In this document: positions 892-41,931 of the stretch, in pieces
Layout of the letters: every line of letters starts with the position of its first letter
Numbering within the stretch: the first letter of the stretch is position 1
DNA from: a virus
Taxonomy: Duplodnaviria; Heunggongvirae; Uroviricota; Caudoviricetes
Direction: 5' to 3' (one strand)
Virus record (IMG/VR): IMGVR_UViG_2718217897_000004
DNA length: 42,229 nt
Program-made: the position numbers and the translations under genes
Notes under the pieces: model-generated
Databases searched by the model: none
Seen by the model: the letters and a program-made list of their open reading frames with translations, nothing else
What the model was told of the DNA's origin: nothing

Positions 892-981
892 GGAGAGATG
901 CCGGAGCGGCTGAACGGACCGGTCTCGAAAACCGGAGTGGGGGCAACTCCACCGGGGGTTCAAATCCCCCTCTCTCCGCCA
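892..981 (+). tRNA. serU: tRNA-Ser (anticodon CGA), prophage attachment site
   Basis: 90-nt sequence GGAGAGATGCCGGAGCGG...CTCGAAA...GGTTCAAATCCCCCTCTCTCCGCCA with long variable arm and anticodon loop containing CGA; integrase gene lies 53 nt downstream. Confidence 0.9.
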
Positions 982-1033: not shown

Positions 1034-2059
1034 TTACTTGGAATATTTTCTTGGAATATTTTCAGGTAACGGGACATCAAGTGTTGGTGAAACTTTAACC
1101 TTCCTGTCATAGATTAGCACTTGCCCTTCGGTTTTGTGACCAGAGAAAAGTTGCTTATCCCGGCTGCTTCCTTCATAGTCTGAAATTCCTTTCGCCTTCA
1201 GATCATGAAAGGTGAAGTCGGTTAAAATACCTGAAATTTTTCCAGCACGATTTCTTGCTTCTACCCACATTTCGTTAAAGCCTTTGTACATATATCGGTT
1301 GCCGTATTGATTGCTGATCACATAGGCAGATTTTGGTAACTGTTTTGCTTTTTCGATCGCTGCCTGTAATCGTGGACTCCATGCTTTTATCTGTTTTTTT
1401 CCGGTTTTCCCTTGCTGGATGAATATCCCGTCGTTTCCAATCTGTTCCCATTTCAGCGATAACACATCGGAAACCCTCGCTGCACACAGATAGGCAATTT
1501 CCATTGCGATAAAAACAGGAAGAGGTGCAACGCTTAATACTTCCTGGTATTCTTTGTCGGTTACATATCGTTCGCGGTTTTTGGCCTTGAATTTACTTAC
1601 ACCTGCACATGGGTTAGCCTTCACGTACCCTCGCTCATACCCCCAACTGTAAACACGGGACATACTGCTTTTTTCATGGTTGGCTTGCGTTTTACTCTGC
1701 TCCCCTCTTTTGTCCATGTATCGACGGATGTGTTCTGGTTTTATGGAATCCGCTGGTACCTTACCGAATACGGCAAGCAACTTTTTTTGATGTTGCAGAT
1801 AATCTTTTTGTGTTCTTGGACTAAGGTCACTGTAATAGGCGCTGGCGAGGAATTTTTCCCACAAGCGACCGAATGTCATTGCACGATCGCGATTATTTAC
1901 AGTTTCCTCATACTTTTTCCATAAAGCAGCTAAACCATCCTTGATGGCGGTTAGTGTGACAGATTCTCTGGATGTTGGTTTCCATACATAACTATATTTA
2001 TTTGGGTATACATTTGGAGGTAATTTTTCGTGTTCAGGATTTTTCCTTCGTCTTCCCAT
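1034..2059 (-). CDS. int: Phage integrase, tyrosine site-specific recombinase
   Basis: 341-aa ORF reading toward the tRNA; typical position and size; stop/start overlap with the upstream excisionase ORF. Confidence 0.88.
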   Translation of the reverse strand: MGRRRKNPEHEKLPPNVYPNKYSYVWKPTSRESVTLTAIKDGLAALWKKYEETVNNRDRAMTFGRLWEKFLASAYYSDLSPRTQKDYLQHQKKLLAVFGKVPADSIKPEHIRRYMDKRGEQSKTQANHEKSSMSRVYSWGYERGYVKANPCAGVSKFKAKNRERYVTDKEYQEVLSVAPLPVFIAMEIAYLCAARVSDVLSLKWEQIGNDGIFIQQGKTGKKQIKAWSPRLQAAIEKAKQLPKSAYVISNQYGNRYMYKGFNEMWVEARNRAGKISGILTDFTFHDLKAKGISDYEGSSRDKQLFSGHKTEGQVLIYDRKVKVSPTLDVPLPENIPRKYSK

Positions 2060-2262
2060 CAGATCGCACCAAAATTCGGCTCTACCTCGCGTGGTGGTAA
2101 AGTTTTATTGCAGGTAAATAGATCCCGGCTGACAATCGGTTTGCCACTACGATTGGTATAGAACGGAAGCCCGTTTTCCATTAACCATTTTCGCTGGTGG
2201 CTTGCATATTTGCAGCCCGTTAATATTAGCAATTCATCTTCGGTTAAAAATAAGCTGCTCAT
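2059..2262 (-). CDS. xis: Excisionase-like small DNA-binding protein
   Basis: 67-aa ORF immediately upstream of int with TGATG overlap; small basic protein at the xis position. Confidence 0.6.
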   Translation of the reverse strand: MSSLFLTEDELLILTGCKYASHQRKWLMENGLPFYTNRSGKPIVSRDLFTCNKTLPPREVEPNFGAI

Positions 2263-4840: not shown

Positions 4841-5032
4841 TTAAAATTCTGCCGGGATTTCGTTATTATCCTGGTGAATAACTTTATCGACCGGATAACA
4901 GCTGCCTGGAATTTTCTGTTCGGTTGCTGCTGCCATACATTCCTGCATTGTTCTGTGAACACTGACTGCAATATCAACTGGCTCTCCGGAAACAAGAAAA
5001 ACCGTCAGAATAAGTGCAAATACTGGATTCAT
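4841..5032 (-). CDS. Small membrane/secreted protein at the ydfD position (YdfD-like)
   Basis: 63-aa frame from internal ATG MNPVFALILTVFLVSG... with hydrophobic N-terminus; AAGGA SD about 8 nt upstream; 4-nt overlap with dicB stop. Equivalence to YdfD is from position and length only. Confidence 0.45.
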   Translation of the reverse strand: MNPVFALILTVFLVSGEPVDIAVSVHRTMQECMAAATEQKIPGSCYPVDKVIHQDNNEIPAEF

Positions 5033-5217
5033 TGTGCACATCCTTTTGGCATCAGACGTAAACGGGCCAGCATTGAAACAATGCATACTTTATTTAATAA
5101 CTCCCGTTCGTGTTTTCTTTTGTTAATGGCATCTTCAGTAAATACAGGATTACTGATAGTGACACCAATTTCAAAACAACCTTCAGACGTATTAACGTTT
5201 GGTAATAACGTTTTCAT
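5029..5217 (-). CDS. dicB: Cell-division inhibitor DicB
   Basis: 62-aa frame MKTLLPNVNTSEGCFEIGVTISNPVFTEDAINKRK...SMLARLRLMPKGCAQ matches recalled DicB nearly residue for residue. Confidence 0.85.
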   Translation of the reverse strand: MKTLLPNVNTSEGCFEIGVTISNPVFTEDAINKRKHERELLNKVCIVSMLARLRLMPKGCAQ

Positions 5218-5386
5218 TATCGCGCCCTCAACAATGAGTTTTGTGATGCGGTGCCTGGTGCCTCCAGGTGACGTTAACCAGTTAACAATTAACGCCGGAT
5301 ACAGAGAATCCACCCATAACACTGTTTTTGGTTTTAACTGTTCCGCGTGCGCTTAGCCGCATTCACCGCATCACAAAATTCACTTT

Positions 5387-5444
5387 AAAAAGGGCGGCAG
5401 AGCAGTCACGGAGTAAAACTGATACCGCCAAACGTCACCAGAAA
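5387..5444 (-). ncRNA. dicF: DicF small regulatory RNA (53 nt) with 3' U-tract
   Basis: Minus strand reads TTTCTGGTGACGTTTGGCGGTATCAGTTTTACTCCGTGACTGCTCTGCCGCCC followed by TTTTT, which matches recalled DicF; sits immediately upstream of dicB as in Qin. Confidence 0.85.
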
Positions 5445-5784
5445 ATTGATAACAGAGGGCGTTGCAGCGGGGTTATCACTTAAGCGTATGGTCAACCTGA
5501 CAACCCGGTGTCCTCAACGGGGAAGGAATAACCCCGCCATACTTACCGCCGCGCCATTTCGCGGAGTGCCACAACCGGAAGCGCACGGTCGACGAAAATT
5601 TAACGACAGGCTATCTATGAACCAGCTACCTCGCCGTGCGCTTTCGCGTTATGGTCTGACTTTTCATGGAAATATCCTTTCAGTAAACTGTCAGTGCCGG
5701 ATGCTCACCCGTGTCCGGCGCACGCACTCCACCTCACCCGTGGAGAACTCCTTAATTACCAACCTTAGCTTCGTTGGTTAGCTA

Positions 5785-6003
5785 TTAACGCGGGTATGTA
5801 ATCATTCTGGCAATGCTTAATGCCGCTGCTTTTTCCAGATTGGTGATATCCTGCTCCAGAGAGAACAGATTTTCAGCCTGCTTAGCCCTGGCTTCATTAG
5901 CCCATTTCAGATCCTGCGCTGCATTAATTTTCTGGCGCATCCACTCATAAAGTTCATCATCGGTATAGTCTGGCGCGATGATGACAGGTTCTCGTTTCTG
6001 CAT
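5785..6003 (-). CDS. YdfC-like small protein of the dicB operon
   Basis: 72-aa frame from internal ATG (MQKREPVIIAPDYTDDELYEW...) with strong AAGGAG SD 5 nt upstream; same length and position as Qin ydfC. Confidence 0.5.
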   Translation of the reverse strand: MQKREPVIIAPDYTDDELYEWMRQKINAAQDLKWANEARAKQAENLFSLEQDITNLEKAAALSIARMITYPR

Positions 6004-6074
6004 GTCAGCTCCTTGTGGTTCGCATTGCCTGCTTTTAACCACGTCAGGCGAGGTGGTATCCTCTGAGGGGTCTG

Positions 6075-6431
6075 TTACTCGAGAGGAAATTGGTTATGAA
6101 TACAATCAAGTTTTCTTGCCCAGAATGTGGTGGCGAAGTCTTTGACACATCCTTTAAGCCGCAGGGCTCTGACAGTTTCGCGGGAGCCATCTGCAAAAAT
6201 TGTGGTCACCTTGTAACTGAAGATGAGTCCTCGCAGTTCGATGACGAAATCGTTGACAATATCTTCGGTGCACTCACCAGAGACTTTCTGAAATAAAGAC
6301 GCATACCGCTTAGTTACCGCTCTGATAACTCTTACCTGTCCGGCAATGGCGCTGATGTCAATATAAAGCGCCATTGCTGCTTCTTTGCCGATCCCGTGAT
6401 GCCTTCCATTCTGATGTTTGACTTCGCCCAC
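6075..6431 (-). CDS. Hypothetical first gene of the leftward (dicB) operon; alternative to the overlapping plus-strand zinc-ribbon ORF
   Basis: 118-aa frame with GTG start and GAGGA SD; occupies the ydfA/ydfB position but fully overlaps a zinc-ribbon ORF on the other strand, so at most one is likely real over the shared span. Confidence 0.25.
   Translation of the reverse strand: MGEVKHQNGRHHGIGKEAAMALYIDISAIAGQVRVIRAVTKRYASLFQKVSGECTEDIVNDFVIELRGLIFSYKVTTIFADGSRETVRALRLKGCVKDFATTFWARKLDCIHNQFPLE
6096..6296 (+). CDS. Small acidic zinc-ribbon protein (CPECGG...CKNCGH), antisense to the leftward early operon
   Basis: 66-aa frame from ATG 6096 with GAGAGG SD about 9 nt upstream; two CxxC pairs about 25 aa apart; acidic C-terminus. 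Confidence 0.4.
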   Translation: MNTIKFSCPECGGEVFDTSFKPQGSDSFAGAICKNCGHLVTEDESSQFDDEIVDNIFGALTRDFLK

Positions 6432-6515
6432 TGAGAAATCCTCTGTTTCCCCTTAACGCCGGGGTAGCGGAACTGTTTGCTGAGAACACCGTGCGGTGTC
6501 TTGATGCAAGTAAGA

Positions 6516-6566
6516 TTAGCCATGGCTAACAATTTGGTCAAGCATTTTTGTTTGTCATGACTAACA
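6516..6566. promoter_or_regulatory. Left operator/promoter region: two palindromic repressor sites
   Basis: Perfect 14-bp palindrome TTAGCCATGGCTAA (6516-6529) and near-palindrome TTGTCATGACTAACA (6552-6566), between dicA and the leftward operon. Confidence 0.5.
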
Positions 6567-6601
6567 TTTTGGACAGTCAAAAAGATAACGCATTGATTGC
6601 G

Positions 6602-7009
6602 TTATCTTTTGTTTGTTCGTTGACGGGCTTTTAATAACTCTTCAAAGAGTTTGTTGAAATTTTTTACTCGGGCGCGCATCTCGGTGAGCTGAGCATCCTG
6701 TTCTGATTCAGGCAGTGCATTAAAAAGCTCAAGGAGCTCATGTTCTTTGGGGGATAGAGCAACTGGCTCCTCAATAGGTGGTGATGGCTGCTTGTCTTCA
6801 TCGCCAAATAGAATCCATGTTGGCGAGCACTGCAGTACTTTGCTGAGGGCAAAAAGATTCTTTCCTGTAGGTTCGCTATCATCCCGCTCCCATTGTGAAA
6901 CTGATACGTGAGAAATTTTCAGGGCTTTAGCAAGAGACCTTTGGGTGTATTTGAGGTTTTTTCGGCGATATCTAATGCGTTCGCCAATGGTTAAATTTTT
7001 TGTATCCAT
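6602..7009 (-). CDS. dicA: Repressor DicA (CI-type HTH repressor of the immunity region)
   Basis: 135-aa protein MDTKNLTIGERIRYRRKNLKYTQRSLAKALKISHVSVSQWER... matches recalled DicA in length and sequence. Confidence 0.9.
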   Translation of the reverse strand: MDTKNLTIGERIRYRRKNLKYTQRSLAKALKISHVSVSQWERDDSEPTGKNLFALSKVLQCSPTWILFGDEDKQPSPPIEEPVALSPKEHELLELFNALPESEQDAQLTEMRARVKNFNKLFEELLKARQRTNKR

Positions 7010-7044
7010 AGTTAGCTAATGCTAAATCTTATTGACTATGTTTT

Positions 7045-7076
7045 TGTTAACATCTATTTTGTTAGTCATGGCTAAC
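7045..7076. promoter_or_regulatory. Right operator/promoter region between dicA and dicC
   Basis: GTTAGTCATGGCTAAC (7061-7076) repeats the left-operator core; TGTTAACA palindrome at 7045-7052; divergent promoters expected here. Confidence 0.5.
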
Positions 7077-7092: not shown

Positions 7093-7323
7093 ATGCTTAA
7101 AACTGACGCACTTTTGTATTTCGGTTCAAAAACAAAACTTGCACAAGCTGCTGGTATTCGTTTGGCTTCGCTTTATAGCTGGAAAGGGGAGCTAGTACCT
7201 GAAGGTCGCGCGATGCGCCTGCAAGAGGCATCCGGCGGGGAACTTCAGTACGACCCCAAAGTTTATGACGAATATCGTAAGGCAAAGCGGGCGGGGCGGT
7301 TGAACAATGAAAATCACCCCTGA
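7093..7323 (+). CDS. dicC: DicC (Cro-like regulator), divergent from dicA
   Basis: 76-aa protein MLKTDALLYFGSKTKLAQAAGIRLASLYSWKG... matches recalled DicC in length and sequence. Confidence 0.85.
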   Translation: MLKTDALLYFGSKTKLAQAAGIRLASLYSWKGELVPEGRAMRLQEASGGELQYDPKVYDEYRKAKRAGRLNNENHP

Positions 7324-12005: not shown

Positions 12006-12467
12006 GGTATTAAAAAACGCCCCGTATACAGACGTTGATCGCCTGAGATGTGGGGATAGGGAGTTAGTTAAATAGTTATACAACAATACCTGATTTTATA
12101 TTGAAGCAAGAAATAGGTTGCTACATATTGAATCATGCGCGTGTACGTCAAATATGGGAGGTCATCGTGCTGGTTCTGAAATGTGCGCTGGCTGTTGCGG
12201 CAGTAATGGCAATTTATTGTCTTGTTATCGTTCTTATGAATCACCTCTCTGATTGATTTCATATTGGCGAGGTGATGGGAGTTAAGTAGAATGGCTGCGG
12301 GTGCTTGAGGCTATCTGCCTCGGGCATGAACACCAACGGCAGATAGAGAAAAGCCCCAGTTAACATTACGCGTCCTGCAAGACGTTTAACATTAATCTGA
12401 GGCCCAATCTATGCTTCACAAACGTAGGTTAGCCTCTTACGTGCCGAAAGGCAAGGAGAAGCAGGCT

Positions 12468-12623
12468 ATGAAGCAGCAAAAGGCGATGTTAATCGCCCTG
12501 ATCGTCATCTGTTTAACCGTCATAGTGACGGCACTGGTAACGAGGAAAGACCTCTGCGAGGTACGAATCCGAACCGGCCAGACGGAGGTCGCTGTCTTCA
12601 CAGCTTACGAACCTGAGGAGTAA
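12468..12623 (+). CDS. hok: Hok/Gef-family type I toxin (51 aa)
   Basis: MKQQKAMLIALIVICLTVIVTALVTRKDLCEVRIRTGQTEVAVFTAYEPEE carries the Hok signature LTRK-LCE-R-R-G--EVA-F-AYE; in-frame upstream extension from 12411 resembles a mok-like leader; structured leader and terminator flank it. Confidence 0.8.
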   Translation: MKQQKAMLIALIVICLTVIVTALVTRKDLCEVRIRTGQTEVAVFTAYEPEE

Positions 12624-12843: not shown

Positions 12844-13104
12844 ATGAAAATCGAAGAATTACGTGAAATTTTTAGTGAAGATGGCCTCTATACTGTGCGC
12901 GTTGAGAATGGCGCTATTGTCAGCCACTGCCGTATTAAATGTTTACAGTCTCAACAAAGGAAGAGTGGAGCTGCGTTAATTCATTTTGTGGATGGGCTTG
13001 TGACGGATGGTTTTATTTTGCGTGCAAATGAATTTGTCACATCGTTGCCGTCTCTGAAAGAAGCTGGGATTAAGGCTGGTTTTTCTGCTTTTGAAGATGA
13101 GTGA
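12844..13104 (+). CDS. Hypothetical protein
   Basis: 86-aa frame from ATG 12844 with AAGGA SD 8 nt upstream. Confidence 0.45.
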   Translation: MKIEELREIFSEDGLYTVRVENGAIVSHCRIKCLQSQQRKSGAALIHFVDGLVTDGFILRANEFVTSLPSLKEAGIKAGFSAFEDE

Positions 13105-15769: not shown

Positions 15770-15845
15770 GGCCCTTTAGCTCAGTGGTAAGAGCGAGCGA
15801 CTCATAATCGCCAGGTCGCTGGTTCAAATCCAGCAAGGGCCACCA
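15770..15845 (+). tRNA. tRNA with CAU anticodon, Ile2(LAU)-like (ileX/ileZ-like)
   Basis: 76 nt, acceptor GGCCCTT/AAGGGCC, anticodon loop CTCATAA; resembles recalled ileX. Confidence 0.8.
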
Positions 15846-15846
15846 G

Positions 15847-15923
15847 CCGCCACTAGCTCATCAGGAAAGAGCGTCAACCCTTTAAGTTGAGTGTGCGAGG
15901 TTCGAGTCCCCGGTGGCGATCCA
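15847..15923 (+). tRNA. tRNA-like gene of uncertain isotype (possibly degenerate)
   Basis: Cloverleaf can be drawn but with C1-A72 mismatch, one T-stem mismatch and anticodon loop CCTTTAA (C at position 33; anticodon would be UUU). Confidence 0.4.
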
Positions 15924-15925
15924 GT

Positions 15926-16001
<76 letters not shown>

Positions 16002-16004
16002 TAT

Positions 16005-16079
<75 letters not shown>

Positions 16080-18429: not shown

Positions 18430-18969
18430 TTAGAAACTGCGTGGAGCTGTGGAAAGAATGGATGCCAGTTCTTCCTTCGATAAATCCCAGCTTCGATTTA
18501 CAGCGTCAATTTTCTTAAACTCATCAAGCATTGCGTTATAGAGATGTTCTGTACGTGAATGAGTATTGGCAATGGGCTGTTTCTGTTCGGGGAAGCGATC
18601 AATTTTCTGATATGCCTCAATGATACTGAAGTAATCGCATTCATTATGACCGTCGAAACCTGGGAGCTGAATTTCCCCATCATGTATTTTTAGATGATGG
18701 TCACGGACTAATTCTTTTTGCTCGTCATCACTAAGTTTCCTGAAAGCATTGGAAAGTCCGCGGTACATATTCAAGACAGCAGTAACAAAATCACGATCTT
18801 CTTTACTTGGTTCATCAACATCCAAATGTGAATATTCGGCCTTCATAACCCAATCATTACCAGATGACACAGCATATTTTACAAGCTGTGGATCAATATC
18901 AGTTTCGATACCTAGGTGGATGGCAATGTCACATAACAAAATGGTATTGATTTTATCCTTAATATCCAT
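18430..18969 (-). CDS. YfbU-family (UPF0304-like) protein, reverse-oriented moron between lysis and packaging modules
   Basis: 179-aa ORF on the opposite strand to all surrounding late genes; segments ...LPGFDGHNECDYFSIIEAY... and ...NAMLDEFKKID... resemble recalled YfbU. Confidence 0.55.
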   Translation of the reverse strand: MDIKDKINTILLCDIAIHLGIETDIDPQLVKYAVSSGNDWVMKAEYSHLDVDEPSKEDRDFVTAVLNMYRGLSNAFRKLSDDEQKELVRDHHLKIHDGEIQLPGFDGHNECDYFSIIEAYQKIDRFPEQKQPIANTHSRTEHLYNAMLDEFKKIDAVNRSWDLSKEELASILSTAPRSF

Positions 18970-38466: not shown

Positions 38467-38530
38467 TTAGCCAGGTAACACAGTGTTATGACAGCCCGCC
38501 GGTTCAGGCGGGCTTTTTTGTGGAGTGGAT

Positions 38531-40936
38531 ATGGCAGCAGTAAAAATCTCAGGTGTGCTGAAAGATGGTGCGGGAAAACCAATACAGAACTGCACTATTC
38601 AACTGAAGGCAAAGCGTAACAGCACCACGGTACTGGTGAACACGGTGGCTTCTGAAAATCCGGATGAAGCCGGACGTTACAGCATGGATGTTGAGTATGG
38701 CCAGTACAGCGTCACCCTGCTGGTTGAAGGTTTTCCGCCTTCACATGCCGGGACCATTACCGTCTATGAAGGCTCCAGACCAGGTACGCTGAATGATTTT
38801 CTCGGTGCCATGACGGAAGATGATGTCATGCCGGAGGCATTGCGTCGTTTTGAGGCAATGGTGGAAGAAGTGGCACGCAACGCCGAAGCCGCCTCTCAGA
38901 GCGCAGCGGCGGCAAAGAAATCCGAAACTGCAGCGGCATCATCAAAGAACGCGGCGAAAACCTCAGAAACGAATGCAGCTAATAGTGCACAGGCGGCAGC
39001 GACCTCAAAGACTGCATCGGCAAACTCCGCGACAGCAGCCAAAAAATCAGAAACCAACGCGAAAAATAGCGAGACAGCCGCAAAGACGAGCGAAACCAAC
39101 GCAAAGTCCAGCCAGACGGCAGCGAAAACCAGCGAAACGAATGCCAAAGCCAGTGAAACTGCGGCGAAAAGCAGTCAGGCTGCAGCAGCCCAAAGCGAGA
39201 GCGCGGCAGCCGGTTCTGCGACTTCAGCAGCTGGATCAGCAACTGCTGCGGCTAACAGCCAGAAAGCTGCGAAGACGAGTGAAACTAACGCAAAGTCCAG
39301 CCAGACGGCAGCGAAGACCAGCGAAACGAATGCCAAAGCCAGTGAAACTGCGGCGAAAAGCAGTCAGGATGCAGCGGCCCAAAGCGAGAGTGCCGCAGCC
39401 AGTTCTGCAAGCGCGGCGGCTGCTTCTGCCACTGCATCAGCTAACAGTCAAAAAGCAGCAAAAACCAGTGAAACCAACGCAAAGGCGAGCGAGACTGCGG
39501 CGGCGAACTCGGCGCAAGCATCGGCAGCAAGCCAGACAGCAGCTAAAGCAAGTGAAGACGCAGCCAGAGAGTATGCAAGCCAGGCAGCGGAGCCGTATAA
39601 ACAAGTTTTGCAGCCGTTGCCCGATGTGTGGATACCGTTTAATGATTCACTGGATATGATTACGGGCTTTTCGCCATCATATAAAAAAATTGTTATTGGC
39701 GACGATGAAATAACAATGCCTGGCGACAAGATTGTAAAGTTTAAACGCGCATCGAAAGCAACTTACATTAATAAATCTGGTGTGCTGACAGAGGCTGCCA
39801 TTGACGGGCCACGATTTGAACGTGATGGCCTGCTTATTGAGGGGCAAAGAACTAACCTGCTAATCAATTCAACAAATCCGACTAAATGGAACAAGTCGTC
39901 AAATATGATCTTAAGTGCATCAGGTGTAGATGATTTCGGATTCCAGTACGCAAAATTTACATTAAAACCAGAAATGGTAGGGCAAATTTCAGCGATTAAC
40001 ATAGTAACCGTTTCCGGCAGTAAAGGTTTTGATGTAACAGGCGGAGAAAAGTATGTAACCATATCATGCAGGGTGCAAAGTGGCACTCCAAATTTAAGAT
40101 GCCGATTACGATTTGAAAACTATGATGGTTCTACCTACACATTCTTAGGTGACGCTTACTTAAATACGACAGATTTATCTATTGATAAGACGGGTGGTGC
40201 CGCTAATCGCATTACTGCAAGGGCTGTTAAAGATGAAGCAAGCAAATGGATCTTTTTTGAGGCGACAATTAAGGCACTTGATACAGAAAATATGATAGGT
40301 GGAATGGTTCAGTATGCCCCGGCAAAAGGAGTGGGCACTGGCGCGGATGATTATATTTATATTGCGACCCCTCAAGTTGAAGGTGGGGCGTGCGCTTCAT
40401 CGTTTATTATAACAGGCGCATCCCCTGTAACACGCGCCAGCGATATTGTAACGGTCCCCATTTCTCTAAATTGGTGCAATCCCGCTATTAGTTCATTAGC
40501 AGAAGTTAATACCAATTGGGATGAATCGCCAAACAAAGAAGGTAGCGCACGTATTCTTAATATTTCCACTACGGGAGATACAACTGAAATTGCAGATGAA
40601 AGTTATATGTATTTGGGGTATACATCTTTGGGAGCACGCGCAATCATTACAAATGGTAAAGGCACTAAAATAGAATATAAAAGCGTTATAGAACGACCAG
40701 AGAGAAAAAGCATTATCGGCTTTAGATTCACAGAAAGTCGAGAATTGTGTGTTGTGGTTAACGGTAATATTGGTGCTAAGGTAGTTTCTCCTTATAAAAA
40801 ACACAAATATACAGGAGGCTTCATTAATATTGGTGGTCAATCATCATCCGGCAACCGTCACCTATTTGGACACGTTCGAAATCTGCGTATTTGGCACAAG
40901 GCATTGACTGATGCTCAGATGGGGGAGTCAATCTAA
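38531..40936 (+). CDS. Side tail fibre protein (lambda Stf-like N-terminus; Ala/Ser/Thr-rich repeat shaft; distinct C-terminal domain)
   Basis: N-terminal MAAVKISGVLKDGAGKPIQNCTIQLKAKRNSTTV... matches recalled lambda Stf; C-terminal about 440 aa is visibly more AT-rich and ends ...NLRIWHKALTDAQMGE, which resembles a LamG/ConA-like lectin motif. Confidence 0.85.
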   Translation: MAAVKISGVLKDGAGKPIQNCTIQLKAKRNSTTVLVNTVASENPDEAGRYSMDVEYGQYSVTLLVEGFPPSHAGTITVYEGSRPGTLNDFLGAMTEDDVMPEALRRFEAMVEEVARNAEAASQSAAAAKKSETAAASSKNAAKTSETNAANSAQAAATSKTASANSATAAKKSETNAKNSETAAKTSETNAKSSQTAAKTSETNAKASETAAKSSQAAAAQSESAAAGSATSAAGSATAAANSQKAAKTSETNAKSSQTAAKTSETNAKASETAAKSSQDAAAQSESAAASSASAAAASATASANSQKAAKTSETNAKASETAAANSAQASAASQTAAKASEDAAREYASQAAEPYKQVLQPLPDVWIPFNDSLDMITGFSPSYKKIVIGDDEITMPGDKIVKFKRASKATYINKSGVLTEAAIDGPRFERDGLLIEGQRTNLLINSTNPTKWNKSSNMILSASGVDDFGFQYAKFTLKPEMVGQISAINIVTVSGSKGFDVTGGEKYVTISCRVQSGTPNLRCRLRFENYDGSTYTFLGDAYLNTTDLSIDKTGGAANRITARAVKDEASKWIFFEATIKALDTENMIGGMVQYAPAKGVGTGADDYIYIATPQVEGGACASSFIITGASPVTRASDIVTVPISLNWCNPAISSLAEVNTNWDESPNKEGSARILNISTTGDTTEIADESYMYLGYTSLGARAIITNGKGTKIEYKSVIERPERKSIIGFRFTESRELCVVVNGNIGAKVVSPYKKHKYTGGFINIGGQSSSGNRHLFGHVRNLRIWHKALTDAQMGESI
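39101..39408 (+). repeat. Near-identical direct repeat (about 120 bp, two copies, 189-bp period) within the tail-fibre shaft
   Basis: 39101-39219 and 39290-39408 differ at only a few positions; encode repeated ...KTSETNAKSSQTAAKTSETNAKASETAAKSSQ... Confidence 0.6.
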
Positions 40937-41217
40937 TGAAAGATTTAACACTCAAATTTGCCGACAGGGCCGACTTTTCGGCCTTTATGGGAAGTATTGG
41001 CTATTATAATGACGAGTCGATGCAGGATGATATTCTGATTGATGTGATAGGTAACGTGTACAAAGAAACCGGAGAGCTGACTGAAGATGGCGAACCGGTA
41101 TGTGTTAAGGAAGATGGATATTTTGTAAACGTGCGCATCATTAAGGATACGCAAATATCGTCATTATTCGATGAATACGCGGTTGCTGTTGAGCATCAAC
41201 TTCGTGGCTGGATGTGA
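40936..41217 (+). CDS. Hypothetical acidic protein following the tail fibre gene
   Basis: 93-aa ORF overlapping the stf stop by 1 nt. Confidence 0.4.
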   Translation: MKDLTLKFADRADFSAFMGSIGYYNDESMQDDILIDVIGNVYKETGELTEDGEPVCVKEDGYFVNVRIIKDTQISSLFDEYAVAVEHQLRGWM

Positions 41218-41226
41218 GGTAGAGAA

Positions 41227-41931
41227 ATGGCTACATCAACAGTAATTCCGGGAGACATCACCACGCTGAAGGGAGATGTTAGTAAAGCAAAGGAAGATAT
41301 TTCCTCTATTAACGGAAAAGTATCAACGCTTCAGACTGATATGGCCAGTGCAAAGCAGGATATCAGCACCAGATACACAAAAACTGAAGTTGATAATAAG
41401 CTGAAAAACAAAGTGGAAGTGAACGATCTGGAAAGTGGTCGTTATGGCGGAGATTTTTACCCGCTGACTGGCCGTGAAGCGTTTTATTTATGGGGATTGG
41501 GCACAACTACAGCGGCGGCAAATCTTTATCTTAATCCTGACCCTGCAATTTCGTCTGTGCTGCGGTCAACATCGTCTATCCGCTATAAACATTCAGTAGA
41601 GACGATAGATTCAGAGCACGCCGATCTCATTTTCAGGATGCGCCCTGTGTGGTACAGGTCGCAATGCGAAAATGACAGGCGTGACTGGGGATTCTATGGA
41701 TTGATTGCCGAGGAAGTTGGAGAAATTGCCCCTCAGTTTGTTCACTGGCGACCAGCCAACGAAGATGATGCACCGGAAACCATTTCCAGCAATGGCCTTG
41801 TTGCCGAAGGTGTAATGTACGAACGTCTGGTTGTTCCACTGATTCACCATATCCAGAAGCTGACTGAAAGAGTTGATGAACTTGAGTCAGAATTAAAGTT
41901 GTTATCCGTTTCCCGAAGCGATATCGGATAA
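41227..41931 (+). CDS. Short tail-fibre-like protein: N-terminal coiled coil plus C-terminal intramolecular chaperone (peptidase S74-like) domain
   Basis: 234 aa; heptad-like N-terminus; C-terminal SSIRYKHSV...DWGFYGLIAEEVGEIAPQFV resembles the endosialidase/tail-fibre chaperone signature. Confidence 0.5.
   Translation: MATSTVIPGDITTLKGDVSKAKEDISSINGKVSTLQTDMASAKQDISTRYTKTEVDNKLKNKVEVNDLESGRYGGDFYPLTGREAFYLWGLGTTTAAANLYLNPDPAISSVLRSTSSIRYKHSVETIDSEHADLIFRMRPVWYRSQCENDRRDWGFYGLIAEEVGEIAPQFVHWRPANEDDAPETISSNGLVAEGVMYERLVVPLIHHIQKLTERVDELESELKLLSVSRSDIG

What the first reader, a model, noticed from the sequence alone, without database searches (positions are those of the whole stretch)
4841..5444. 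Intact DicF sRNA, dicB and a ydfD-like gene arranged as in Qin but inside a complete prophage
The minus strand encodes the 53-nt DicF sequence essentially as recalled for E. coli, followed by a 62-aa DicB and a 63-aa signal-peptide protein, all between the repressor and an intact exonuclease/xis/int block. In K-12 Qin this unit is part of a defective prophage; here it appears in a complete one, so these host-targeting functions may be deployed during induction.
Basis: partly seen in the sequence, partly recalled or inferred. Interest (0 to 1): 0.45.

Follow-up and report, generated by a model that had tools for sequence, protein, structure and literature searches.

The report
dicF–dicB–ydfD unit in lambdoid prophage
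The region really does hold the known cell-division-blocking small RNA DicF and the small proteins DicB and YdfD, inside a gene-complete E. coli prophage, but the same arrangement is already seen in most E. coli genomes and in isolated phages, so it is ordinary.

Summary
On the minus strand, DicF lies at 5392-5444. It scores 76.7 bits against Rfam RF00039 and is 53/53 identical to K-12. dicB (5029-5217, 62 aa) matches K-12 at 60/62 residues (Q36H, I44V). ydfD (4841-5032, 63 aa) matches at 54/63 and keeps both conserved cysteines. The block from ydfC to the end of ydfD aligns without gaps to K-12 Qin at 95.9%.

The control parts are also present:
- dicA, dicC and the DicA operators over the dicBp promoter
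- a Rem-like antirepressor

The surrounding element sits at tRNA-Ser (serU) next to mtfA. It has full-length ORFs for every lambdoid module, but attR lies beyond the window and inducibility is untested.

The idea that these host-targeting functions are early (PL-type) phage functions is reasonable but not new. The 604-bp unit occurs in 3778 of 5426 complete E. coli genomes. It also occurs at 95-99.7% identity in deposited phage genomes (Tritos, mEp460_ev081, HannyBb, PhiR42_1 and the vB_Eco series). A 2023 paper already notes a functional phage carrying dicB, dicF, dicAC and rem.

Verdict: real, correctly identified, already known, low interest.

The parts
5392..5444 (-). dicF, a 53-nt small RNA. 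The unpaired 5' part is followed by a terminator hairpin (GGCGG...CCGCC) and a U run at 5386-5391.
   Evidence: Rfam RF00039, 76.7 bits. It is 53/53 identical to K-12 b1574. The predicted fold is a single 3' hairpin of -15.9 kcal/mol.
5029..5217 (-). dicB, 62 aa. This is the MinC-dependent cell-division inhibitor and ManYZ inhibitor.
   Evidence: Pfam PF05358 over 1-62/62 and NCBIfam NF049927 at 134 bits. It is 60/62 identical to K-12, with Q36H and I44V. It is 100% identical to RefSeq WP_000854558.1 as encoded in strain XH992.
4841..5032 (-). ydfD, 63 aa, DUF1482, known as a lysis protein. Its start codon overlaps the dicB stop (ATGA), which suggests translational coupling.
   Evidence: Pfam PF07358, E 1.5e-24. 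It is 54/63 identical to K-12 YdfD, and C32 and C45 are kept.
5445..5784 (-). A 340-nt structured spacer between ydfC and dicF. This is the DicF precursor region that holds the published RNase III and RNase E processing sites.
   Evidence: It is 97.1% identical to K-12 with no indels. The MFE is -150.5 kcal/mol with z = -3.06 against shuffles. Processing is described in PMC10448788.
5218..5391 (-). A 174-nt dicF-dicB spacer. Transcription must read through the DicF terminator to reach dicB.
   Evidence: It is 97.1% identical to K-12.
5785..6003 (-). ydfC, 72 aa.
   Evidence: It is 70/72 identical to K-12 YdfC.
6075..6431 (-). The first slot of the operon, occupied by ydfA/ydfB in K-12. Here it holds a different module: a 118-aa sense ORF overlapping an antisense 68-aa zinc-ribbon ORF at 6090-6296 (+).
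   Evidence: There is no blastn or tblastn match to K-12 ydfA/ydfB. The same module is present in phage vB_EcoS-640R1. The antisense ORF matches NCBIfam NF047912 (ECs_2282 family) at 57 bits against a cut-off of 37.
6513..6541 (-). The dicBp (PL-like) promoter: TTGACC, 17 nt, TAATCT. The palindromic DicA operator TTAGCCATGGCTAA (6516-6529) lies over it, and a second operator-like site is at 6551-6564.
   Evidence: It aligns with the K-12 dicBp region. Operator-like sites recur in the dicA-dicC intergenic region at 7012-7025 and 7062-7075. The assignment of the promoter and operators follows PMC10448788.
6602..7009 (-). dicA, a 135-aa short repressor of the Gifsy/DicA type.
   Evidence: NCBIfam NF007257 (transcriptional repressor DicA) at 235.7 bits against a cut-off of 101. 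It is 93% identical to K-12 DicA.
7093..7323 (+). dicC, a 76-aa Cro analogue.
   Evidence: Pfam P22_Cro. It is 97% identical to K-12 DicC.
12844..13104 (+). A Rem-like antirepressor candidate, 86 aa, lying between hokD and the DUF968 gene as rem does in Qin.
   Evidence: tblastn with K-12 Rem gives 71% identity over 83/83 residues, E 3e-35. The antirepressor role of Rem is described in PMC10448788.
2321..4747 (-). An 808-aa exonuclease, with a RecE-like N-terminal part and an Rv2179c-like 3'-5' exonuclease C-terminal domain.
   Evidence: Pfam PF06630 and PF16473. NCBIfam PRK09709 gives a partial match. The gene has the same length in strain 2D.
2059..2262 (-). An excisionase-like gene (DUF4224), 67 aa.
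   Evidence: It is 100% identical to the XH992 protein WP_000096344.1.
1034..2059 (-). A tyrosine integrase, 341 aa.
   Evidence: Pfam Phage_integrase. It aligns end to end at 58% identity with phage ST64B Int, with the catalytic motifs kept. It is 99.4-99.7% identical to the integrases in phage records ON470580 and ON470583.
951..981 (+). The attL core: the 31-bp 3' end of tRNA-Ser(CGA), whose gene spans 892-981.
   Evidence: ARAGORN identifies the tRNA. In relative XH992 the same 31-mer is duplicated about 400 bp beyond the last phage gene. In this window it occurs only once, so attR is not included.

Best explanation
This is the dicBF early-left (PL-type) operon of a Qin/mEp460-like lambdoid temperate phage. 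The phage is integrated at tRNA-Ser (serU) next to mtfA in an E. coli chromosome.

**In the lysogen.** The short, non-cleavable repressor DicA binds palindromic operators over dicBp and keeps the operon off. This step is inferred from 93% identity to K-12 DicA and from the conserved operators.

**Derepression.** The operon switches on through the Rem-like antirepressor or through the spontaneous DicA/DicC switch. This is inferred from K-12 experiments.

**Transcription and processing.** Transcription from dicBp runs through the first-slot module and ydfC into a structured 340-nt leader. RNase III and then RNase E cut out the 5' end of DicF, and the DicF hairpin plus U-run terminates a share of transcripts. 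This was shown in K-12. Here the sequence is identical for DicF and 97% identical for the leader.

**DicF action.** DicF pairs through its 3' part with ftsZ and pykA mRNAs and through its 5' part with xylR mRNA, lowering FtsZ synthesis.

**Read-through products.**
- DicB binds MinC and takes it to the septum to dismantle Z rings. It also blocks ManYZ-dependent DNA entry of superinfecting phages.
- YdfD is translationally coupled to DicB. It inhibits IspG and causes lysis unless division is blocked.
- The exonuclease, xis and int follow.

The unit is therefore the functional counterpart of lambda kil in the PL operon. It halts host division, and incidentally excludes some phages, when the prophage is derepressed.
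For: **Identity and order of parts.**
- Searches give DicF 53/53, DicB 60/62, YdfD 54/63 and an ungapped 1248-bp alignment to Qin at 95.9%.
- Searches show the control circuit: DicA, DicC, the operators over a TTGACC-17-TAATCT promoter, and a Rem homologue.
- Searches show the terminator hairpin and the structured leader.
- The sequence shows directly that all genes from dicBp to int lie on one strand, with no predicted terminator other than the DicF hairpin.

**Gene-complete phage context.**
- One search finds full-length counterparts for nearly all genes of the XH992 relative.
- One search gives PHROGs assignments.
- One search shows Int matching ST64B Int end to end.

**Same operon in deposited phage genomes.**
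- Tritos has cI, three small ORFs, an annotated DicF, dicB, ydfD, exonuclease, xis and int in that order.

**Published mechanisms.**
- PMC10448788: DicA repression, the Rem antirepressor, RNase III/E processing, and functional phage mEp460_ev081 carrying dicB, dicF, dicAC and rem.
- PMC5069750: DicF targets and pairing regions.
- PMC6832061: DicB, MinC/ZipA and ManYZ.
- PMC8835842: YdfD, IspG, and DicB offsetting lysis.
- PMC4967827: DicB determinants.
Against: - Nothing in the window shows expression. All mechanistic steps are carried over from K-12 Qin.
- attR is not in the window, so excision competence is unverified.
- PGAP flags the indel-free identical int frame in two close relatives as 'frameshifted'.
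- No LexA box lies near the Rem-like gene. [quoted passage not shown] The inducing signal is therefore unknown.
- No N-type antiterminator was identified. How much transcription passes the DicF terminator to reach dicB through int is unknown.
Confidence: 0.85

Rival explanations
1. The element only looks complete. It is a defective or satellite-like prophage, and the dicBF unit is kept by selection on the host, for phage exclusion through DicB/ManYZ and metabolic or division control through DicF. On this view it is not a working phage early function.
For: - The unit is in 3778 of 5426 E. coli genomes, often in several copies (median 2, up to 9). Most of those contexts are thought to be defective prophages (PMC5069750).
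- attR is not in the window.
- The int of the closest RefSeq relatives is flagged as a pseudogene.
- In 2016 no phage genome carried the unit (PMC5069750).
Against: - All modules are full-length ORFs.
- Int matches the ST64B integrase end to end.
- The same 341-aa Int and the same unit occur in deposited phage genome records.
- A functional phage with the unit is reported (PMC10448788).
Confidence: 0.12
2. The DicF-like sequence is chiefly a transcription terminator of the early-left operon, like lambda tL1, and the small RNA is a by-product with no role for the phage.
For: - DicF ends in an intrinsic terminator that sits between the small early genes and dicB through int.
- With flanks about 97% identical, zero mismatches in 53 nt is not in itself significant.
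Against: - The unpaired 5' 15 nt and the loop, which are not needed for termination, are also identical to K-12. These are the experimentally defined pairing regions (PMC5069750).
- The Rfam family conserves the 5' single-stranded part.
Confidence: 0.03

Closest known systems
The dicBF operon of cryptic prophage Qin (Kim), E. coli K-12 (ydfABC-dicF-dicB-ydfD-ydfE, controlled by dicA/dicC and rem)
   Same: - DicF is 53/53 identical, DicB 60/62, YdfD 54/63 and YdfC 70/72.
- The spacing is the same: a 340-nt leader, a 174-nt spacer, and the dicB/ydfD ATGA overlap.
- DicA is 93% and DicC 97% identical, with the same operator family and promoter.
- A Rem homologue (71%) lies next to hokD.
   Different: - The chromosomal site is serU/mtfA here, against ydfJ-rspB for Qin.
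- ydfA/ydfB are replaced by an unrelated module holding an antisense ECs_2282-family zinc-ribbon ORF.
- Downstream lies an intact 808-aa exonuclease, unrelated to the ydfE pseudogene, plus intact xis and int. Qin instead has the IS2-disrupted ydfE/intQ.
- Replication, Q, lysis, head and tail modules are all present, whereas Qin lacks most of them.
Deposited temperate coliphage genomes carrying the same unit: Escherichia phage Tritos (OV696610), mEp460_ev081 (LR597641), HannyBb, PhiR42_1, vB_EcoS-640R1/-813R8/-689R5 and vB_EcoM-606R7
   Same: - The 604-bp dicF-dicB-ydfD block is 95-99.7% identical over 99-100% of its length.
- The order repressor, small ORFs, DicF, dicB, ydfD, exonuclease, xis, int is the same, and DicF is annotated in Tritos.
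- vB_EcoS-640R1 also shares the ydfA/B-replacing module.
- vB_EcoM-606R7 and vB_EcoS-689R5 share the integrase at over 99%.
   Different: - Tritos and 640R1 have different immunity regions (cI/Cro types rather than DicA/DicC) and different integrases and attachment sites.
- No phage record covers more than 74% of the left half or 66% of the right half of the window. This is the usual lambdoid mosaicism.
Lambda kil in the PL operon
   Same: It is a small early-left-operon function that blocks FtsZ-ring assembly and causes filamentation on prophage derepression (PMC3961180). It occupies a comparable position between the immunity region and the recombination/xis/int genes.
   Different: There is no sequence relationship. 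Kil acts on FtsZ in a ZipA-dependent way, whereas DicB acts through MinC and DicF acts by antisense pairing with ftsZ mRNA.

Membership tests
DicF RNA (Rfam RF00039) | The covariance-model score is above the curated gathering threshold over the full model. | tested here: met
   76.7 bits against a gathering score of 48, covering model positions 1-52 of 52, E 2.4e-15.
DicF RNA (Rfam RF00039) | The pairing regions for ftsZ and pykA (3' part) and for xylR (5' part) are intact. | tested here: met
   All 53 nt are identical to K-12 DicF. The pairing regions are defined in PMC5069750.
DicF RNA (Rfam RF00039) | The RNA is produced by RNase III/RNase E processing of a dicBp transcript and ends at its own intrinsic terminator. 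| not testable with these tools
   Only the sequence prerequisites can be shown. The leader is 97% identical to K-12 and strongly structured, and the hairpin plus U-run is present.
DicB (Pfam PF05358 / NCBIfam NF049927) | The protein gives a full-length profile match above the curated cut-offs. | tested here: met
   Pfam gives 135.4 bits against a cut-off of 27, over 1-62/62. NCBIfam gives 134.3 bits against a cut-off of 100.
DicB (Pfam PF05358 / NCBIfam NF049927) | The N-terminus is intact (residues 1-14, position 2 occupied, L5) and residues up to about 54 are retained, as required for division inhibition. | tested here: met
   Residues 1-35 are identical to K-12. The only changes are Q36H and I44V, and there is no truncation. 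The determinants come from PMC4967827.
DicB (Pfam PF05358 / NCBIfam NF049927) | The protein binds the MinC C-terminal domain and inhibits ManYZ. | not testable with these tools
   This is inferred from 97% identity to the characterised protein.
YdfD / DUF1482 lysis protein | The protein matches the Pfam DUF1482 profile, is about 63 aa long, and has the two conserved cysteines. | tested here: met
   PF07358 gives 86 bits against a cut-off of 25. C32 and C45 are retained and identity to K-12 is 54/63. The conserved cysteines are noted in PMC8835842.
YdfD / DUF1482 lysis protein | The protein has lytic activity through IspG inhibition. | not testable with these tools
   The nine substitutions cluster at residues 3-8 and 57-63. 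Their effect is unknown.
Intact (inducible) lambdoid prophage | Full-length genes are present for integration/excision, immunity, replication, late control, lysis, packaging, head and tail. | tested here: met
   Searches cover the modules. Int matches ST64B Int end to end.
Intact (inducible) lambdoid prophage | Both attachment sites (attL and attR) are present. | tested here: inconclusive
   The attL core is at 951-981. The window ends at the stop codon of the last phage gene. In relative XH992 the second core copy lies about 400 bp further on.
Intact (inducible) lambdoid prophage | The prophage excises and produces infectious particles. | not testable with these tools
   There is only indirect support. 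Mosaically related genomes are deposited as phage records.

The most novel reading that the evidence does not exclude
These Qin/mEp460-type phages appear to lack an N-like antiterminator. In gene-complete members, the DicF hairpin may act as a timing gate in the early-left operon. Terminated transcripts would give only DicF, a reversible lowering of FtsZ synthesis. Read-through would commit the cell to DicB, YdfD, exonuclease, Xis and Int. In this particular variant, the antisense ECs_2282-family zinc-ribbon gene lying in the first slot of the operon could tune that flow by convergent transcription.
Probability: 0.15. Interest if true: 0.35.

Novelty: already known. Interest (0 to 1): 0.08.

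Why it matters
It matters little beyond annotation. The locus is one more example showing that dicBF is a normal early-operon cargo of a widespread family of temperate coliphages, not a peculiarity of the K-12 remnant Qin. A 2016 paper argued that the operon was absent from sequenced phages and therefore mainly a domesticated host function. That view has since been overtaken by isolated phages carrying it, and this prophage fits the newer picture. A gene-complete lysogen like this one would be a convenient natural system for asking what DicF, DicB and YdfD do for the phage during derepression, but such systems are already available.

Tried and rejected
- **LexA box.** I searched for a box (CTGT-N8-ACAG, up to 1 mismatch) that could tie the Rem-like antirepressor to the SOS response. 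There were 14 hits against 13.4 expected by chance, and none lies upstream of the Rem-like gene, so no SOS link could be proposed.
- **YdfE versus the exonuclease.** I tested whether K-12 YdfE is the truncated counterpart of the 808-aa exonuclease. Neither blastn nor tblastn gave a match, so the idea was rejected.
- **attR in the window.** The 31-bp core occurs only once in the window.
- **A hidden frameshift in int.** PGAP flags the int of two close relatives as 'frameshifted', so I checked the window's copy. It has no indel relative to them, yet the 341-aa frame aligns end to end with ST64B Int. I therefore treat it as intact but note the discrepancy.
- **A hidden known RNA or gene in the ydfC-dicF spacer.** There is no Rfam hit at gathering level and no K-12 annotation. 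The strong structure is explained by the published RNase III/E processing leader.
- **Promoter and terminator scan.** The generic scan missed both dicBp and the DicF terminator because of its loop-size and hexamer rules. I located them by alignment to K-12 instead.
- **Large searches not used.** The large protein-database and structure tools were not run, because every part matched curated families directly.

Full report
**1. Observation**

All the elements below lie on the minus strand.

- **DicF.** Rfam's DicF model (RF00039) matches window 5443-5392 over its whole length. The score is 76.7 bits against a gathering score of 48, with E 2.4e-15. An ungapped comparison with the K-12 record (NC_000913.3) shows the 53-nt dicF at 5444-5392 to be 53/53 identical.
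- **dicB.** It lies 174 nt downstream of dicF, at 5217-5029, and encodes 62 aa. It matches Pfam DicB over 1-62/62 and NCBIfam NF049927 above cut-off. It differs from K-12 DicB only by Q36H and I44V.
- **ydfD.** It lies at 5032-4841 and encodes 63 aa (DUF1482). Its ATG overlaps the dicB stop (ATGA). It is 54/63 identical to K-12 YdfD, and both conserved cysteines are kept.
- **The whole block.** The stretch from ydfC to 85 nt past ydfD (window 6003-4756) aligns to K-12 Qin without a single gap at 95.9%.

**2. Surroundings**

*Upstream (higher coordinates)*

- ydfC is at 5785-6003.
- A 340-nt non-coding leader separates ydfC from dicF. It is 97% identical to K-12 and strongly structured (z = -3.06).
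- In the slot where K-12 has ydfA/ydfB there is an unrelated module (6004-6445). It holds a 118-aa sense ORF that overlaps an antisense 68-aa CxxC...CxxC ORF. The antisense ORF belongs to NCBIfam's ECs_2282 zinc-binding family.
- The dicBp promoter (TTGACC-17-TAATCT, 6541-6513) carries a perfect palindromic operator, TTAGCCATGGCTAA. Related sites recur between dicA and dicC.
- dicA (6602-7009) matches NCBIfam 'transcriptional repressor DicA' at 236 bits and is 93% identical to K-12.
- dicC (7093-7323) is 97% identical to K-12.
- A Rem homologue (71% identity) sits next to hokD/sok at 12844-13104, as rem does in Qin.

*Downstream (lower coordinates)*

- An 808-aa exonuclease has a RecE-like N-terminal part and an Rv2179c-like 3'-5' exonuclease domain.
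- It is followed by an excisionase-like gene and a 341-aa tyrosine integrase.
- tRNA-Ser(CGA) and mtfA come next.
- K-12's ydfE pseudogene is not homologous to this exonuclease.

**3. Is the prophage complete?**

The nearest annotated relative is a prophage at the same serU/mtfA site in E. coli XH992. It is 98.6% identical over 93% of the first 25 kb.

I translated each of its annotated genes and searched the window with them. All have full-length counterparts except four cases:

- ydfA/ydfB, which are replaced.
- The central, recombined part of the exonuclease.
- A DUF977 protein that differs in its last 6 residues.
- A swapped distal tail-fibre gene.

PHROGs independently assigns small and large terminase, portal, protease, major head, major tail, tape measure, J, Q and holin.

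PGAP flags the integrase of XH992 and of strain 2D as 'frameshifted', and the window has no indel relative to them. Even so, the 341-aa frame aligns end to end with the integrase of the functional Salmonella phage ST64B, including the AARVSDV, FHDLKAKG and GHKTE...YDRK motifs. It is also over 99% identical to integrases in two deposited phage records. I therefore regard int as intact.

The 31-bp att core (the tRNA-Ser 3' end, 951-981) occurs only once in the window. In XH992 the second copy lies about 400 bp beyond the last phage gene, and the window ends at exactly that gene's stop codon. The element is therefore gene-complete. Its right boundary and its inducibility cannot be established from this window.

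**4. How it most likely works**

Everything from dicBp to int is on one strand. This is the early-left (PL-type) operon of a lambdoid phage.

The following steps were shown for K-12 Qin and are carried over here by near-identity:

- DicA represses dicBp. DicA lacks the Ala-Gly cleavage site and is relieved by the antirepressor Rem or by a spontaneous DicA/DicC switch.
- The polycistronic RNA is cut by RNase III, giving a roughly 190-nt intermediate, and then by RNase E to give the 53-nt DicF. DicF's 3' end is its own terminator (PMC10448788).
- DicF pairs with ftsZ and pykA through its 3' part and with xylR through its 5' part (PMC5069750).
- DicB binds MinC, targets it to the septum through ZipA, and also blocks ManYZ-dependent phage DNA entry (PMC6832061).
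- DicB's N-terminal 14 residues, L5, and the residues before the last eight are needed for activity (PMC4967827). All are unchanged here except the conservative I44V.
- YdfD causes lysis through IspG inhibition, and DicB offsets this (PMC8835842).

What is inferred rather than shown here is that derepression of this prophage delivers DicF first and then, by read-through of the DicF terminator, DicB, YdfD, exonuclease, Xis and Int. This would stop host division much as lambda Kil does.

The trigger is unknown. [quoted passage not shown]

**5. Comparison with what is known, and novelty**

- The 604-bp unit is present at 80% coverage or more in 3778 of 5426 complete E. coli genomes. The median is 2 places per genome that has any match to the unit, and the maximum is 9.
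- It is also present at 95-99.7% identity and 99-100% coverage in eight deposited phage genomes.
- In phage Tritos the order is cI, three small ORFs, DicF (annotated as such), dicB, ydfD, exonuclease, xis, int.
- vB_EcoS-640R1 even shares the ydfA/B-replacing module.
- In 2016 it was reported that no sequenced phage carried dicB or dicF (PMC5069750). By 2023 the same laboratory noted that the functional phage mEp460_ev081 carries dicB, dicF, dicAC and rem (PMC10448788).

It is already in the literature and in public annotation.

**6. Rivals**

- *Disguised remnant.* The element could be a remnant in disguise, with the unit retained for the host. The missing attR and the PGAP pseudogene flags in relatives leave this open at about 0.12.
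- *Terminator only.* DicF could be merely a terminator by-product. This is unlikely, because the non-terminator pairing regions are also identical and are conserved in the Rfam family.

**7. Verdict**

The feature is real and was correctly identified. Interest is 0.08.

The most novel reading still open is that the DicF terminator works as a timing gate in an N-less early operon, possibly tuned by the antisense zinc-ribbon gene. I give this a probability of about 0.15, and it would be of modest interest if true.

Noticed in passing
window 6075-6431 (sense ORF, -) and 6090-6296 (antisense ORF, +): The slot that holds ydfA/ydfB in K-12 is occupied by an unrelated module with two overlapping ORFs on opposite strands. 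RefSeq/NCBIfam names the antisense 68-aa CxxC...CxxC ORF as an ECs_2282-family zinc-binding protein (57 bits against a cut-off of 37). Phage records instead annotate the 118-aa sense ORF, which has a good RBS and a GTG start at the ydfA position. The module occurs in 936 of 5426 E. coli genomes. Which strand is expressed is unresolved.
   Followed up: partly
window 1034-2059 (-); L002 45567-46617; L006 1369-2419: The integrase gene has no indel relative to the copies in E. coli XH992 and 2D, which PGAP marks as 'frameshifted' pseudogenes. Even so, the 341-aa frame aligns end to end with phage ST64B Int. The pseudogene flags in RefSeq look like an annotation artefact tied to the C-terminal tail.
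   Followed up: yes
window 12299-12620 and 12844-13104: A hokD/sok type I toxin-antitoxin locus (Rfam sok, 113 bits) is followed by a Rem-like antirepressor gene that is 71% identical to K-12 Rem. No LexA box lies upstream of it.
   Followed up: partly
window 15770-16079 (+): A cluster of four tRNA genes lies between the Q antiterminator and the holin gene. Their anticodons are CAT (annotated tRNA-Ile in the relative), Lys-TTT, Thr-TGT and Gly-TCC.
   Followed up: no
window 18430-18969 (-): A YfbU-family gene lies on the opposite strand, between the lysis cassette and the HNH/terminase genes. It looks like a moron, and it is 100% identical to the XH992 copy.
   Followed up: no
window 38525-41931 (+): The side tail-fibre genes are the most diverged part relative to XH992. 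The large fibre protein is 74% identical. The distal 234-aa ORF (41227-41931) shares only its first 27 residues with the 346-aa counterpart, which suggests a swapped receptor-binding tip.
   Followed up: no
window 6446-6473 (-): A 28-nt segment, GTTCCGCTACCCCGGCGTTAAGGGGAAA, contains a CCCC/GGGG hairpin. It is conserved, with a single G-to-A change in K-12, just upstream of the first operon gene in the window, K-12, Tritos and vB_EcoS-640R1, even though the flanks on both sides differ. It marks a mosaic junction in the 5' leader of the dicBp transcript, and its role is unknown.
   Followed up: no
phage record MT713136.1 (Aeromonas phage AP1) 249916-250152; PP818812.1 (Actinobacillus phage vB_Apl-pPE4) 5840-6004: A 254-kb Aeromonas jumbo-phage record holds 237 bp that are 98% identical to the E. 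coli dicF and dicF-dicB spacer region. An Actinobacillus phage record also has an 89% match to about 165 bp of the same region. These are unexpected hosts. The Aeromonas case looks like contamination or misassembly.
   Followed up: no
L006 (E. coli 2D) 6139-6778: In strain 2D the dicF-dicB-ydfD block is 100% identical to the window. However, two extra hypothetical genes are inserted between ydfC and dicF, which shows that the DicF leader region tolerates insertions.
   Followed up: no
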